DNA of 64,000 nucleotides from an archaeon (GTDB taxonomy: Archaea; Nanobdellota; Nanobdellia; Pacearchaeales; GW2011-AR1). The notes under the pieces were generated by a model. That model saw only the letters and a program-made list of their open reading frames with translations, had not been told where the DNA came from and searched no databases. Shown piece after piece: positions 30,701 through 33,700 of this stretch. Made by a program: the position numbers and the translations under genes. How positions within the stretch are numbered: position 1 is the stretch's first letter; each line of letters begins with the position of its first letter. Where the stretch lies: assembly GCA_030636025.1 (NCBI GenBank), contig DAOVXQ010000005.1:12700-76699 (forward strand), read 5' to 3'.

Positions 30701-33700
30701 CTGTCGCCGAAGCATTAAACACAACATCATTTGTATTCCAGTTTGAATCATTATTCGGACTATTAACTGTTAAAGTTGGTGCAGTAACTTCACTAACATT
30801 CAAAGTCATTGGATTCAAACTACTCGCCTCTAAAATCGGGCTGTAAAAATCATATGTCCCGACATCAAACTTGAACTCAGGCAAAATATGCGTCGCATCA
30901 GTCCCAATTGTCAAATTAACCTCATCACTCCCTGAACCATCAAACAAACTATAATCCGAATACGCCCACTTCGCCCGCCCCGATGTATAAAGCTGTTTTA
31001 TCTCATCCTCACTTAATGACCTATTAAATATCATTACCTCGTCGATTGAACCGTTGAACGGTCTGTAAGTTCCATCCCAGCCCCCAATTCTTACACTGTT
31101 AGTGCTTGTCGCAAAACCCCCAATTGTGATGGTACTATTAACAAGAATTCCATCAACATATAAAACTAAATTATCGGGCTCCCATGTTCCTACAACGTGG
31201 TGCCAGTTTCCATCATGATAATTTTCATCATGCGCAATAATAAAAGAAGTTCCACTTGAATTATGTATAATTAAACTAAATTTTCCATAGCTGTCAGCAT
31301 GTAAAATATAAGCACGATTAGAACCCGAGCCACCAAATTCATTTTTAGTGATAATATAAGCATTAGAACCCAAACCAGTATTTGTGTATTTCAACCATAC
31401 TAATAGAGTCATGCCATCAGTGAGATTCAAACTCTCATCATTCCCAACATCAACCCAATCACCATCCCCATCAAAATCCCCACCCCGACTATAAACCCCA
31501 TTAGCATTTGAAATATCTCTATCCCCGCCCCCCGAAGCATTTGAATAAACCGTCCCATTATTACTATTCCCAGACCAAACACCCTCGACATCTCCCTTTC
31601 TCACCAAAACAATATCATTCCCCACATCAACATCGTAAATCTTCCCCGAATAATTCTCCCGAGTTATACTCTTAACCCTCACTTCATCATTCTCTGAATT
31701 GCCTTCCTCAGAAGGTACTTGCCGAGGCGTCAAGAAATAAACATCATCCCCATTTTCAAACCGAGAGTAAGTTTCTGTAACCTGCTCTAAAGAGAAATCA
31801 GATAAATCTTTTGAATCAAAAGATTTAAATAGTGCATTACCTGTATTATGTGTATTAAATACATTAAACAAATCCAATAAAATGCCAACACTAACATTAT
31901 CTGTTCCAGAAGAATTAAAGAAAACAATGGATGAATTACAAATCATAAATTGGTCAGCTGTAGCCAGACAAGCGATAGAACGAAAAGCATCACAATTAAA
32001 AGTATTACAAGAATTTACCAAAGACAGCGACTTCACCGAAGAAGACGCATTAGAATTAGGAAGAAAACTAAACAAAGAGTTATCTAAAAAATTTAAGGCA
32101 TCCTCGGAGCAATAAATGCAACTTGTTGTAGATGCCAACATTTTATTTTCCGCACTAATTAAAAATTCAAAAACAGCAGAGTTATTTCTTTCAGACAAAC
32201 TCGAACTAATCGCACCAGAATTTTTATTAATAGAATTCGAAAAATATAAATCACTAATATTATCAAAAACACATCGTTCTGAGCAAGAACTTTCTAATGT
32301 GCTTTTAATTTTCAAAAATAAGCTATCATTAATATCCAAACCCGAAATAGAATCGTTTCTCAAACAATCTGATTCAATTTGCCCAGACCCCGACGACATA
32401 CAATATTTAGCCACAGCACTCAAATTTAACTGCTCAATCTGGTCCAACGATAAACACTTCAAAGAACAATCTGAAATTGAAGTATTCACAACAGCAGACC
32501 TAATTGAACTATTCGAGCTTGAAGAATAAACCCTATGCTCCTCGCTAACAACCAACTCCCTGCCATCATCCAAAACAATCTTATACATCTCACCAAAATT
32601 ATCAAAAACCTGTCTCTCCGACGGCAACTGCCACTCCCCCTCACCTGTCTCATCATTCAAAGTCATAACTCTCTCATCATCTTTCAAATCAGCAAACAAC
32701 TTCCACTCTTCTTTATAGCATTTTTTATTCTTATCATCAACAGAAAAACTTAAATAATCCTCATTCTCATTATTATCTGTCAAAATGGCAGAGCTAATTA
32801 ATCCTAAACAAAAGTTTGACTCTGAATTCTTAGTTAAAGCCGTAGTTAAATTAATGAAACAAAATATTTCTGAAAGATTTTCTAAAACCAGTACTTTATC
32901 TGAGGGAGACCAAGAATTCTGCGACAAGATTGATTGGTATCCTATTGATGAATTAGAACTAAAAGAATCTTTTGTTAGGGAGTTAAAAGAAATTGAAAAA
33001 GGACCGCACTCTGAAATGACTTTAGACGAATTAGACAAATTATCAGGATTAAAATGACTTTCAAATTCGAGCTTTCTGATAAATTGAGGAACACTATCAA
33101 TAAAATCTCGAGAAAAGACAAAAATCTCTCCATTATTATAAATAAAAAAATCAGACAGATTATTTCCTGTGATGAAACTGCTATTCAACATTTCAAAAAT
33201 CTCAGGCATGGATTGAGTGACTACAAAAGAGTCCAAATTGGAAGTTTTGTCCTCATATTCAAAGTTAAAAGAGATAAAATCATCTTTGAAAACTTTGTTC
33301 ATCACGACCAAGCCTACTAAATCTTCTTTCTCTTCTTCATCTTCTTCACAATATTCAACACCTGCTTGCAGGTTCTCGCCTGCGTTGCAGGTTCTCGCTT
33401 GTGACCTGTGGGTTATGCCCTTTAGGGTATGCCCTGAAAGGGTATAATCCCATTCATCACCACAATCAACTTCAACCAAACTCAAAATCTCTGTCTCATT
33501 ATCATAACAATGCCCTGAAAAATCCTCTAAAGTTGAACCATTACTTAAATTGCTTTCATCAAAATGCCAGTATCCTACCAAGCTATCTTCTCCGACAAAA
33601 TCACTTTCATTATAGCCCAAAGAAACATCCCAATAACCTGCCCTTGCACTCAAATTGCTCCCCTCATTAGATTGATATGTCGCACTCAACTCAATATTAT

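What the first reader, a model, noticed from the sequence alone, without database searches (positions are those of the whole stretch)
31882..32529. A second, diverged VapBC-like cassette occupies the same slot of intein 1
ORFs 31882-32115 and 32116-32529 are homologous to the pair in intein 2. The antitoxins compare as MPTLTLSVPEELKKTMDELQIINWSAVARQ against MASVTFSVPNEVKLEMKELSWVNWSELARQ. The toxins share DANI, DPDD.QYLA, W[SN].D.HFKEQS.IEVFTT and are about 40-45% identical by eye. They lie in the same orientation (antisense) and in the same B-F position. Conservation is at the amino-acid level on the plus strand, while the host-strand translation of the same DNA is low-complexity and poorly conserved. 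This suggests that selection acts on the TA proteins, and that on the host strand it acts only to keep the frame free of stops.
Basis: partly seen in the sequence, partly recalled or inferred. Interest (0 to 1): 0.85.

Follow-up and report, generated by a model that had tools for sequence, protein, structure and literature searches.

The report
Toxin-antitoxin operon hidden antisense inside an intein
An intact toxin-antitoxin gene pair is written on the opposite strand of a self-splicing protein insert (intein) in a giant archaeal surface-protein gene, so the same 650 bases code on both strands; dozens of metagenome relatives share this layout, and I found no report of it.

Summary
ORFs 31882-32115 (VapB-like antitoxin) and 32116-32529 (PIN_2/VapC-like toxin with an intact acidic tetrad) are real. 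They are 40% and 42% identical to the pair at 28867-29505. Both pairs lie antisense in the endonuclease slot of two related inteins, which interrupt a 4195-aa Laminin_G-repeat ORF (24741-37328, minus strand). The host frame has no stops across either pair.

Raw identity and dN/dS cannot separate the two frames, because the third codon positions of the two frames coincide. A third-position test can. Changes silent for the toxin but not for the host accumulate freely. Changes that alter the toxin are suppressed. Changes that create host stops never occur. So selection acts on the toxin-antitoxin (TA) proteins, and on the host frame only against stops.

This is not a one-off. All 31 distinct antisense PIN_2 toxin genes examined in inteins of this family (window, L076, metagenome loci) use the same phase with no host stops. 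Other inteins of the family carry ParE/YafQ-like or DUF433/DUF5615 pairs instead. More distant relatives carry in-frame LAGLIDADG endonucleases.

The most likely role is an addiction or anti-deletion cargo that replaces homing. This is inferred, not shown. I found no prior report.

The parts
31882..32115 (+). Antitoxin gene (VapB-like, ribbon-helix-helix type), 77 aa
   Evidence: ORF. NF050799 VapB E 1.5e-6, below cut-off. The antitoxins of close homologs carry a precomputed PF26688 RHH_12 hit. 40% identical to 28867-29100.
32116..32529 (+). Toxin gene (PIN_2 / VapC-like nuclease), 137 aa, start codon abutting the antitoxin stop
   Evidence: PF10130 E 5e-27. D6/E40/D94/D112 invariant. AF2 pLDDT 88.6; Foldseek top hits are VapC PIN toxins (PAE0151 2fe1, VapBC2 3zvk; prob 1.0, TM 0.62-0.74).
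31817..31881 (+). Putative archaeal promoter and operator of the cassette: BRE/TATA-like CAAAAGATTTAAATA (31817-31831), GTATTA repeats (31843-31848, 31852-31857) and the palindrome GTATTAAATAC (31852-31862)
   Evidence: The same 'gAAAGnTTTA(A/T)ATA' box plus repeats lies about 50-60 nt upstream of the antitoxin ATG in most free-standing homologs and in the first gene of most embedded cassettes. In the host frame it reads L-F-K-S-F. Function is inferred from sequence only.
31830..32537 (-). Host-frame 'mirror' linker: translation of the complement of the cassette, Ser/Asn/Leu/Phe-rich, inside intein 1
   Evidence: 0 stops. AF2 pLDDT 23-33 for residues 70-303 of the intein core, against 51-86 for the splicing halves. 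No Pfam domain. No purifying selection at amino-acid level.
32526..32720 (-). Intein 1 N-terminal splicing region (CYKEEWKLF ... LVVSEEHRVY; block B S-x-x-H)
   Evidence: N-terminal HMM E 8e-33. TIGR01445 5.7e-4 and Intein_splicing 2e-4, both below cut-off. Aligned with the family.
31566..31829 (-). Intein 1 C-terminal splicing region (FKSFDSKDLSDFSLEQV ... GKIYDVDVGNDIVLV ... VWSGN), followed by +1 Ser
   Evidence: C-terminal HMM E 1e-41. Block F/G and the N|S junction are conserved in 26 of 27 family members. Extein continuity: DYMGRNNGSVEG in uninterrupted repeats against DFSGH|...|SNNGT here.
31566..33509 (-). Whole intein 1 (host aa 1274-1921), long-form: CYDNETEILS + N-terminal cargo insertion + core
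32785..33320 (+). Third antisense TA pair in the N-terminal insertion of intein 1: antitoxin 32785-33057, YafQ/ParE-like toxin 33054-33320
   Evidence: TIGR00053 YafQ 7.8e-12, below cut-off. ParE_toxin 0.011. Homologous pairs lie in the B-F slot of L093, L088 and L109. Host frame has 0 stops.
28687..29505 (+). Paralogous cassette in intein 2: short RHH ORF 28687-28863, antitoxin 28867-29100, PIN_2 toxin 29101-29505
28386..29717 (-). Intein 2 (host aa 2538-2981), inserted at DYMH|C...N|SNNG
24741..37328 (-). Host gene: 4195-aa secreted or anchored protein with 7 Laminin_G_3 domains
   Evidence: Pfam PF13385 7.7e-165, 7 stretches.

Best explanation
The region is an intact, autonomously promoted type II toxin-antitoxin operon: an RHH-type VapB-like antitoxin followed by a PIN_2 VapC-like nuclease. 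It is encoded on the strand opposite to an intein, in the slot between splicing blocks B and F where inteins normally carry their homing endonuclease. The intein interrupts a giant Laminin_G-repeat surface-protein gene of what is probably a DPANN-type archaeon.

The DNA codes on both strands. On the plus strand it specifies the two TA proteins, which are under purifying selection. On the minus strand the ribosome reads straight through the complement. This gives a roughly 235-residue low-complexity, probably disordered linker between the two halves of the splicing domain. The linker is discarded with the intein.

The two frames are phased so that their wobble positions coincide. The host frame is kept open by synonymous choice alone: a codon before Tyr never ends in C or T, and a codon before His or Gln never ends in T.

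The most likely role is a persistence device that replaces homing. If the intein is lost, by recombination between the near-identical Laminin_G repeats or by conversion from an intein-free allele, the antitoxin gene goes with it. The stable toxin then arrests the cell, so the intein and the repeat it sits in are retained.

These points are shown: the architecture, the intactness of both frames, the selection pattern, the retained promoter-like box and the recurrence elsewhere. These points are inferred: protein splicing, expression of either strand, toxicity and the addiction effect.
For: The TA genes look real and active. PIN_2 matches at E 5e-27 and the acidic tetrad is invariant. The AF2 model has pLDDT 88.6 and matches VapC structures. 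The antitoxin is VapB/RHH-like. The stop and start codons abut.

The intein hallmarks are present. These are C1, block B S-x-x-H, block F, a terminal Asn followed by Ser, and extein continuity with uninterrupted repeats in the same protein. More distant relatives found by the same flank search carry in-frame LAGLIDADG_3 domains in the same slot.

Dual coding is maintained.
- All 31 embedded toxins have 0 host-frame stops. Free-standing homologs average 3.08 stops, and only 8 of 77 have none.
- The codon before Tyr ends in A or G in 82 of 82 embedded cases, against 151 of 296 free-standing cases. The codon before CAN ends in T in 0 of 145 embedded cases, against 92 of 371.
- Resampling synonymous codons predicts 1.8-4 stops per cassette.

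Selection is on the TA frame. The mirror region is modelled as unstructured, pLDDT 23-33. The promoter/operator box is shared with free-standing homologs.

The layout recurs. All 36 toxin hits (31 distinct sequences) in the window, L076 and 25 metagenome loci are antisense, in the same phase, within ORFs up to more than 3000 aa. A search with the mirror peptide finds 108 protein clusters.

The cargo is interchangeable. ParE/YafQ-like and DUF433/DUF5615 pairs occupy the same slot, also antisense. What the cargoes share is being TA modules, not one particular nuclease. No member of the TA-carrying subfamily has an endonuclease domain.
Against: There is no expression, splicing or toxicity data. 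Everything rests on sequence.

The intein HMM matches are below the curated cut-offs: Intein_splicing 19-21 bits against 35.8, and TIGR01445 24.2 against 24.5. The penultimate His of block G is replaced by Gly. The Foldseek hits of the low-confidence intein model are all Hint domains or inteins, but are not significant (E 0.4-10).

The addiction benefit to the intein is not distinguishable, with these data, from a TA module that merely uses the intein as a tolerated landing site. T1's closest relatives are free-standing (L001, L002), so cassettes move in and out. A long disordered linker, plus a second cargo insertion near the N-terminus of intein 1, might impair splicing.
Confidence: 0.6

Rival explanations
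1. Passenger or safe-harbour model. The TA operon gives the intein nothing. It persists there because the endonuclease slot of a spliced-out element is one of the few places in a dense, small genome where an insertion is harmless, provided the host frame stays open. The TA does whatever free-standing copies do (stress response or defence) and hitch-hikes on intein spread.
For: T1 is nested among free-standing homologs: L001 at 78%, L002 at 64%. Three unrelated TA families, and tRNA genes in relatives, use permissive loops of the same intein family. Cassettes occupy different slots: the window's ParE/YafQ-like pair sits in the N-terminal loop, while its L093 homolog sits in the B-F slot.
Against: About 35 of 39 inteins of the SPEHKV/WSGN subfamily carry a TA pair and none carries an endonuclease. 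That is a very tight association for a neutral passenger. This model overlaps strongly with the best explanation and differs only in who benefits.
Confidence: 0.27
2. The PIN nuclease, with the RHH protein as its DNA-binding subunit, is a free-standing, antisense-encoded homing endonuclease. It cuts intein-free Laminin_G repeats and drives intein spread.
For: The same intein occupies paralogous sites in one gene: 2 in the window, and 2 or more in L088, L090, L093, L094 and L109. It also occupies several different extein sites. The canonical endonuclease domain is missing. PIN-like folds include DNA nucleases (general knowledge).
Against: The same slot is filled interchangeably by ParE/YafQ-like and DUF433/DUF5615 pairs. 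Families of the ParE/YafQ kind are not known to act as site-specific DNA endonucleases (general knowledge). Free-standing homologs have the same operon, promoter and operator layout as ordinary TA loci. The structural neighbours are VapC RNase toxins.
Confidence: 0.06
3. Antisense-regulation model. The main effect of the embedded promoter is convergent transcription or antisense RNA that throttles expression of the giant surface-protein gene. The TA proteins are secondary.
For: A conserved BRE/TATA-like box fires against the host gene. In the window it lies in a perfect 12-nt palindrome (31803-31827).
Against: This does not explain purifying selection on TA amino acids or the conserved catalytic residues. 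It also does not explain the use of three different TA families. It could co-exist with the best explanation.
Confidence: 0.05
4. Artefact or relic. The giant ORF is not a real gene across these segments (the host gene is broken by inserted TA loci), or the TA ORFs are decaying pseudogenes, and the open frames are chance.
For: Gene callers can report only one strand. In L086, L095, L102 and the first L104 intein the host frame is interrupted or shifted.
Against: 31 of 31 embedded toxins lack host-frame stops, against 8 of 77 free-standing ones. The codon-context avoidance is absolute. The splicing motifs are flush with the extein junctions. The TA frame shows purifying selection and retains its catalytic residues.
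Confidence: 0.02

Closest known systems
Type II VapBC toxin-antitoxin modules (PIN-domain toxin plus RHH/AbrB antitoxin), including archaeal PIN_2 (PF10130) loci
   Same: Gene order, sizes, abutting stop and start codons, PIN fold with four acidic residues, and an upstream promoter with repeat operator. More than 100 free-standing homologs exist in DPANN, Asgard and methanogen-related archaea.
   Different: It is embedded antisense inside a protein-coding intein and recoded so that the opposite strand has no stops. No member of this PIN_2 family has a solved structure detectable by sequence.
Canonical large inteins with an in-frame LAGLIDADG homing endonuclease between blocks B and F
   Same: The same splicing-domain family and the same insertion slot. 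More distant relatives found by the same flank search (L113, L126, L132, L135, L137, L139, L141) carry in-frame LAGLIDADG_3 domains there.
   Different: Here the slot holds no endonuclease. Its in-frame reading is a disordered mirror peptide, and the functional genes are on the other strand with their own promoter.
[quoted passage not shown]
   Same: An insertion that is stop-free in the host frame while the real gene is read in another frame, so genes overlap inside a selfish insertion.
   Different: In ShiLan the hidden gene is on the same strand, it is a homing nuclease, and no splicing domain is detectable. Here the hidden genes are antisense, they form a two-gene TA operon, and they are flanked by recognisable intein blocks.
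TA modules as stabilisers of mobile or deletion-prone DNA (plasmid addiction; TA pairs in superintegrons and in Tn3-family transposons). From my own knowledge, not checked here.
   Same: The proposed logic is the same: loss of the carrier DNA removes the antitoxin gene and is punished.
   Different: The carrier here is an intein within a repeat-rich chromosomal gene. I found no report of such a carrier.

Membership tests
VapBC type II toxin-antitoxin | Toxin is a PIN domain with the conserved acidic residues | tested here: met
   PF10130 E 5e-27, above cut-off. D6/E40/D94/D112 invariant. The AF2 model matches VapC structures with prob 1.0.
VapBC type II toxin-antitoxin | Small upstream antitoxin with a DNA-binding N-terminal domain | tested here: inconclusive
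   NF050799 VapB at 1.5e-6 but 28.7 bits against a cut-off of 60. No hit in the local Pfam copy. The antitoxins of the close homologs L001 and L002 carry a precomputed PF26688 RHH_12 hit.
VapBC type II toxin-antitoxin | Bicistronic operon, antitoxin first, with an autoregulated promoter | tested here: inconclusive
   Gene order and the TAA-ATG junction are read directly from the sequence. A conserved BRE/TATA-like box and GTATTA repeats are present. There are no transcription data.
VapBC type II toxin-antitoxin | Toxin arrests growth and the antitoxin neutralises it | not testable with these tools
   Needs expression experiments.
Intein (HINT protein-splicing element) | N-terminal Cys/Ser, and block B T/S-x-x-H | tested here: met
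   Cys1; LVVSEEHRV and LVVSPEHKV.
Intein (HINT protein-splicing element) | C-terminal His-Asn followed by Cys/Ser/Thr | tested here: inconclusive
   The terminal Asn and +1 Ser are present (26 of 27 relatives). The penultimate residue is Gly, not His (WSGN|S). Inteins that lack this His are known (my own knowledge).
Intein (HINT protein-splicing element) | HINT fold or family HMM | tested here: inconclusive
   Intein_splicing 2e-4 to 8.5e-4 and TIGR01445 5e-5, all below cut-off. LAGLIDADG-bearing relatives score higher, 27-30 bits. AF2 gives the splicing halves pLDDT 51-86. The top Foldseek hits are all Hint domains or inteins but with E 0.4-10.
Intein (HINT protein-splicing element) | In-frame insertion at a conserved host site that also exists uninterrupted | tested here: met
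   DYMGRNNGSVEG occurs in three uninterrupted repeats of the same protein. The interrupted sites read DYMH|intein|SNNGSVEG and DFSGH|intein|SNNGT.
Intein (HINT protein-splicing element) | Protein splicing activity | not testable with these tools
   Needs an expression or splicing assay.
Antisense overlapping (dual-coding) genes | Both frames intact over the whole overlap beyond chance, with selection detectable | tested here: met
   0 host stops in 31 of 31 embedded toxins against 8 of 77 free-standing ones. Absolute codon-context avoidance. TA frame under purifying selection; host frame selected only against stops.

The most novel reading that the evidence does not exclude
These inteins are a distinct class of 'armed' or cargo-carrying intein. 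In giant surface-protein genes of DPANN-type archaea, the homing endonuclease has been replaced by antisense toxin-antitoxin operons of at least three unrelated families. In some relatives the inteins also carry sense-strand tRNA genes, placed in three permissive loops of the splicing domain. Persistence is by post-segregational addiction (and stabilisation of the repeat-rich host gene) rather than by homing. The roughly 650-nt fully dual-coding overlaps are maintained for long evolutionary times.
Probability: 0.45. Interest if true: 0.92.

Novelty: new variant of a known kind. Interest (0 to 1): 0.86.

Why it matters
Inteins are thought to persist through homing endonucleases, or else to decay into mini-inteins. 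A lineage that swaps the endonuclease for an addiction module on the other strand would be a third persistence strategy.

It would also be one of the longest naturally maintained antisense protein-protein overlaps outside viruses. It comes with a built-in control, the free-standing homologs, which shows exactly how the code is bent: choice of the synonymous base before Tyr, His and Gln codons.

There is a practical consequence as well. Gene callers report only the giant ORF or the 'mirror' peptide; 108 protein clusters in public databases match that mirror translation. TA loci, and in relatives tRNA genes, inside such inteins can therefore be missed. The inteins tolerate 230-280-residue junk linkers and extra loop insertions, which is of interest for intein engineering.

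Tried and rejected
Synonymous sites are saturated (pS 0.56-0.68), and the wobble positions of the two frames coincide, so both frames look constrained. I replaced it with a third-position class test that uses free-standing homologs as the control.
- A sequence search of the PDB with the toxin profile found nothing. Fold comparison was needed.
- The Foldseek search with the intein model is not significant, because the model is mostly low-confidence linker.
- I checked whether T1's closest relatives (L001-L004) are degraded inteins. No splicing-domain remnant was found, so they are free-standing.
- I looked for RNA genes in the window's inteins, because relatives carry tRNAs there. ARAGORN and Rfam found none.
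- The sigma-70 promoter scan was not used, because the organism is archaeal. I compared upstream regions by eye instead.
- The idea that the PIN protein is the homing nuclease was considered and down-weighted, because ParE/YafQ-like and DUF5615 cargoes fill the same slot.
- Six literature searches found no report of TA genes inside inteins.
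Full report
**What is at the coordinates**

The plus strand carries two abutting ORFs, 31882-32115 (77 aa) and 32116-32529 (137 aa). The antitoxin stop TAA is followed directly by the toxin ATG.

The second ORF is a PIN_2 domain protein: PF10130 at E 5e-27, with weaker hits to PIN_3 and PIN. In a 42-sequence alignment with database homologs, the four PIN acidic residues (D6, E40, D94, D112) and N8 and Q118 are invariant. 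Both window toxins are in that alignment. An AlphaFold model built on the alignment is confident (pLDDT 88.6, pTM 0.83). Its best PDB neighbours are VapC toxins: PAE0151 (2fe1), Rickettsia VapBC2 (3zvk), and the Shigella, Salmonella and Mycobacterium VapCs, with probability 1.0 and TM 0.62-0.74.

The first ORF matches the NCBIfam VapB model at 1.5e-6, below the cut-off. The corresponding genes next to close homologs carry a precomputed RHH_12 hit.

The paralogous pair at 28867-29100 and 29101-29505 is 40% and 42% identical (E 6e-15 and 2e-28).

**The host**

The minus strand is one 4195-aa ORF (24741-37328) with seven Laminin_G_3 domains. Uninterrupted repeats read ...DYMGRNNGSVEG.... Two repeats are interrupted at that point: DYMH|C...N|SNNGSVEG and DFSGH|C...N|SNNGT.

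The inserts are host aa 1274-1921 (window 31566-33509) and aa 2538-2981 (window 28386-29717). They begin with Cys and contain block B (LVVSEEHRV, LVVSPEHKV) and block F (GKIYDVDVGNDIVLV). They end WSGN and are followed by Ser.

Family HMM matches are real but below the curated thresholds: Intein_splicing at 2e-4 to 8.5e-4, and TIGR01445 at 5e-5 with 24.2 bits against a cut-off of 24.5. I call them inteins on the motifs, the extein continuity and their relatives (below). Splicing itself is inferred.

The plus-strand cassette lies wholly between blocks B and F. The host frame has no stop across it, while the four frames that code for neither the cassette nor the host have 13-33 stops.

**How the two frames relate, and which is selected**

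The TA codon's third position is also the host codon's third position. The host codon is the complement of the previous codon's position 3 plus positions 1 and 2 of the current codon (derived, confirmed). This has two consequences.

First, the host-frame peptide is almost a deterministic mirror of the TA peptide: Glu/Asp gives Ser, Lys/Asn gives Phe/Leu, and Leu gives Asn/Lys/Ser. This explains its Ser/Asn/Leu/Phe-rich low complexity.

Second, host-frame conservation is coupled to TA conservation. Identity is 37-40% in the host frame against 41-43% in the TA frame. dN/dS is 0.54 and 0.57 in the host frame against 0.27 and 0.44 in the TA frame, with saturated dS.

Three other measures do.

(i) Nucleotide identity between the cassettes runs TA position 2 (0.69-0.76) > position 1 (0.52-0.57) > position 3 (0.42-0.48). 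That is the signature of coding in the TA frame.

(ii) I took aligned codons that differ only at the shared third position, in 31 intein-embedded and 77 free-standing toxins. Rates are relative to changes silent in both frames.

| Change | Embedded toxins | Free-standing homologs |
|---|---|---|
| Silent for TA, not for host | 1.37-1.49 | 1.54-1.58 |
| Alters TA, silent for host | 0.29-0.49 | 0.30-0.33 |
| Involves a host-frame stop | 0 observed (367 weighted opportunities) | 0.67-1.09 |

(iii) All 31 embedded toxins have zero host-frame stops. Free-standing toxins average 3.08 stops, and only 8 of 77 have none. The codon before a Tyr codon ends in A or G in 82 of 82 embedded cases, against 151 of 296 free-standing cases. 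The codon before His or Gln never ends in T (0 of 145, against 92 of 371).

Resampling synonymous codons from the window's own usage predicts 1.8-2.4 stops per VapBC cassette, with zero stops in 4-9% of trials.

The AlphaFold model of the intein-1 core supports the same reading. The two splicing halves have pLDDT 51-86, and the 234-residue mirror region has pLDDT 23-33. So selection acts on the TA proteins and, on the host strand, only against stops.

**It is a family, not an accident**

A search of species-representative genomes with the toxin alignment returned 80 loci. Nearly all are free-standing VapBC pairs in Nanoarchaeota, Woesearchaeota, Micrarchaeota, Promethearchaeota and Methanosarcinales. 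One, L076 (Nanoarchaeota MAG, JAGLMD010000144.1), has the same architecture. A minus-strand ORF is open over the whole 6.1-kb contig. An intein CYDNRTEILT...LLVSPEHKVY...IYDVTVPNHVILVRR...WSGN|S sits at a different extein site. An antisense VapB/PIN pair lies in the B-F slot.

A metagenome scan used only two splicing-domain peptides and returned 68 loci. In these loci, the window and L076, all 36 PIN_2 hits (31 distinct sequences) are antisense to the intein. All have zero host stops and the identical phase. Many lie in ORFs of 2000-3100 aa that run off the contigs.

I classified 49 non-identical complete inteins, with these approximate counts:
- about 21 carry antisense RHH + PIN_2;
- 7 carry an antisense antitoxin + ParE/YafQ-like toxin;
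- 7 carry antisense DUF433 (9e-19) + DUF5615 (4e-14);
- 9 more distant members carry an in-frame LAGLIDADG_3 endonuclease and no antisense ORF;
- a few are minimal, carry a tRNA, or hold only an antitoxin-like ORF.

A full scan of 1.84 billion cluster representatives with the mirror peptide found 108 clusters (35 at E <= 1e-10), including proteins of 2100-4000 aa. Six literature searches found no description of TA genes inside inteins. The nearest analogue is the ShiLan insertion with a same-strand, out-of-frame HNH gene (PMC11855218).

**The two window cassettes are different sub-lineages**

On a neighbour-joining tree, embedded toxins cluster far more than chance: 7 state changes against 27 for shuffled labels. 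They do not form one clade, however. T1's nearest relatives are free-standing L001 (78%) and L002 (64%). T2's nearest is embedded L085 (74%).

The intein-2 cassette is a three-gene variant. A short RHH ORF (28687-28863) lies behind the promoter, followed by A2 and T2. This layout is shared with L085, L086, L087, L112, L119 and L120.

DNA identity between the two inteins is mosaic: 63-97% in the splicing domains, 70-78% over the 3' third of the toxin gene, and 45-68% over the rest of the cassette.

L002 is free-standing yet its antisense frame is still fully open (256-aa ORF). L001 is open for 198 codons. This pattern fits a recent escape from an intein, or a pre-adaptation for capture. Either way, cassettes are exchanged between inteins and free loci, so 'diverged copy' is too simple.

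**Expression signals**

Both free-standing and embedded cassettes keep a box gAAAGnTTTA(A/T)ATA about 50-60 nt upstream of the ATG of the first gene, followed by short repeats. The box has the form of an archaeal BRE/TATA element.

In the window the box is CAAAAGATTTAAATA (31817-31831). The repeats are GTATTA (31843-31848, 31852-31857) and the palindrome GTATTAAATAC (31852-31862). Read in the host frame the box is L-F-K-S-F. This explains the conserved F/Y-K-x-F motif at the start of the C-terminal splicing region across the family.

This supports an autonomous, probably autoregulated antisense transcription unit. It is sequence inference only.

**Mechanism and alternatives**

These points are shown: the architecture, dual coding, the direction of selection, the retained promoter-like box, the interchangeability of TA cargo, and the absence of an endonuclease in the TA-carrying subfamily.

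The following steps are inferred. The host ribosome reads through, the two HINT halves associate around a disordered linker, and the intein excises itself. The plus strand independently produces antitoxin and toxin. Loss of the intein then removes the antitoxin gene and releases the toxin, whether the loss comes from recombination among near-identical Laminin_G repeats or from conversion by an empty allele. The element and its repeat are therefore retained. I put about 0.9 on the structural reading and about 0.45 on addiction as the selected function.

The closest rival is that the TA is merely a tolerated passenger in a safe harbour (about 0.27). A homing-nuclease role for the PIN protein is unlikely (about 0.06), because ParE/YafQ-like and DUF5615 toxins substitute for it. 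Antisense regulation of the host gene may be a side effect. Artefact and pseudogene readings are excluded.

**Verdict**

The finding is real and its interpretation is essentially correct. It is one visible instance of a widespread intein organisation for which I found no prior report. I rate it a new variant of known kinds (intein, type II TA, antisense overlap), of high interest.

Noticed in passing
window 32785-33320 (+), inside host aa ~1284-1536 of intein 1: A third antisense TA pair: an antitoxin at 32785-33057 and a YafQ/ParE-like toxin at 33054-33320. It sits in a second cargo site, a loop just after CYDNETEILS. Its toxin is in a different antisense phase (codon-on-codon) and uses no TTA, CTA or TCA codons, where about 4 would be expected (p about 0.007). 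Homologous pairs occupy the B-F slot in L093, L088 and L109.
   Followed up: partly
window 28687-28863 (+): A short extra RHH-type ORF (59 aa, E 9.5e-14 to the antitoxin HMM) lies between the promoter and the intein-2 antitoxin. This three-gene layout is conserved in L085, L086, L087, L112, L119 and L120, so it is a variant operon and not a random duplication.
   Followed up: partly
L090 5003-5085; L091 645-729 and 1944-2027; L093 603-684; L094 7842-7925; L100 2393-2476; L106 764-848; L108 4278-4918 (three); L110 (two); L122 3909-3992: In related loci, tRNA genes (82-87 nt) lie on the sense strand. ARAGORN calls them Leu-CAA, Phe-GAA and Ile-GAT. The eight in the five loci checked against Rfam (L090, L091, L093, L106, L108) score 48-58 bits against a gathering score of 29. 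Where I checked (L090, L091, L093, L094, L106, L108) they lie inside intein loops and are read through by the host frame, giving peptides such as PGSIPGWGG from the T-arm. None occurs in the window.
   Followed up: partly
window 33345-33470 (-): A GC-rich 126-nt stretch in the N-terminal insertion of intein 1 lies where relatives carry tRNAs. It folds unusually well on the host strand (-48.4 kcal/mol, z -4.9, 0 of 200 shuffles) and holds a tandem 17-nt repeat (33366-33382 and 33385-33401). It has no Rfam or ARAGORN match. It is unexplained.
   Followed up: partly
window 31803-31827: A perfect 12-nt inverted repeat, TAAATCTTTTGA/TCAAAAGATTTA, overlaps the BRE/TATA-like box. It encodes KSFDSKDL in the host frame and lies next to a 60-nt stretch that is 97% identical between the two inteins. 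It could be a bidirectional promoter, an operator or a gene-conversion tract.
   Followed up: no
L094 7950-9287, L098 3363-4808, L104 4999-6165, L109 3141-4190, L114, L115, L143: The same intein family carries antisense DUF433 + DUF5615 (Mut7-C/PIN-like) pairs in the B-F slot, with the host frame open. L098 has two DUF433 genes.
   Followed up: partly
L002 3470-4240 (-): A free-standing VapBC cassette (toxin 64% identical to T1) lies between two minus-strand membrane-protein genes. Its antisense frame is fully open as a 256-aa ORF whose start and stop overlap the neighbouring genes. It may be a cassette that escaped from an intein, or an annotated 'mirror' gene.
   Followed up: partly
L088, L089, L091, L100, L108, L111, L115, L122, L133, L143 (host frame after ...DIVLVRR): Several relatives have a further long insertion between block F and block G. 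This is a third cargo site. The tRNA genes of L091 (1944-2027), L100 and L122 lie downstream of block F, apparently in this insertion.
   Followed up: no
public protein databases (P0156-P0257): 108 protein clusters match the translation of the complement of a VapBC cassette. Many are 240-280 aa, about the length of the mirror ORF alone. This suggests that gene callers often report the mirror ORF in place of the TA genes.
   Followed up: no
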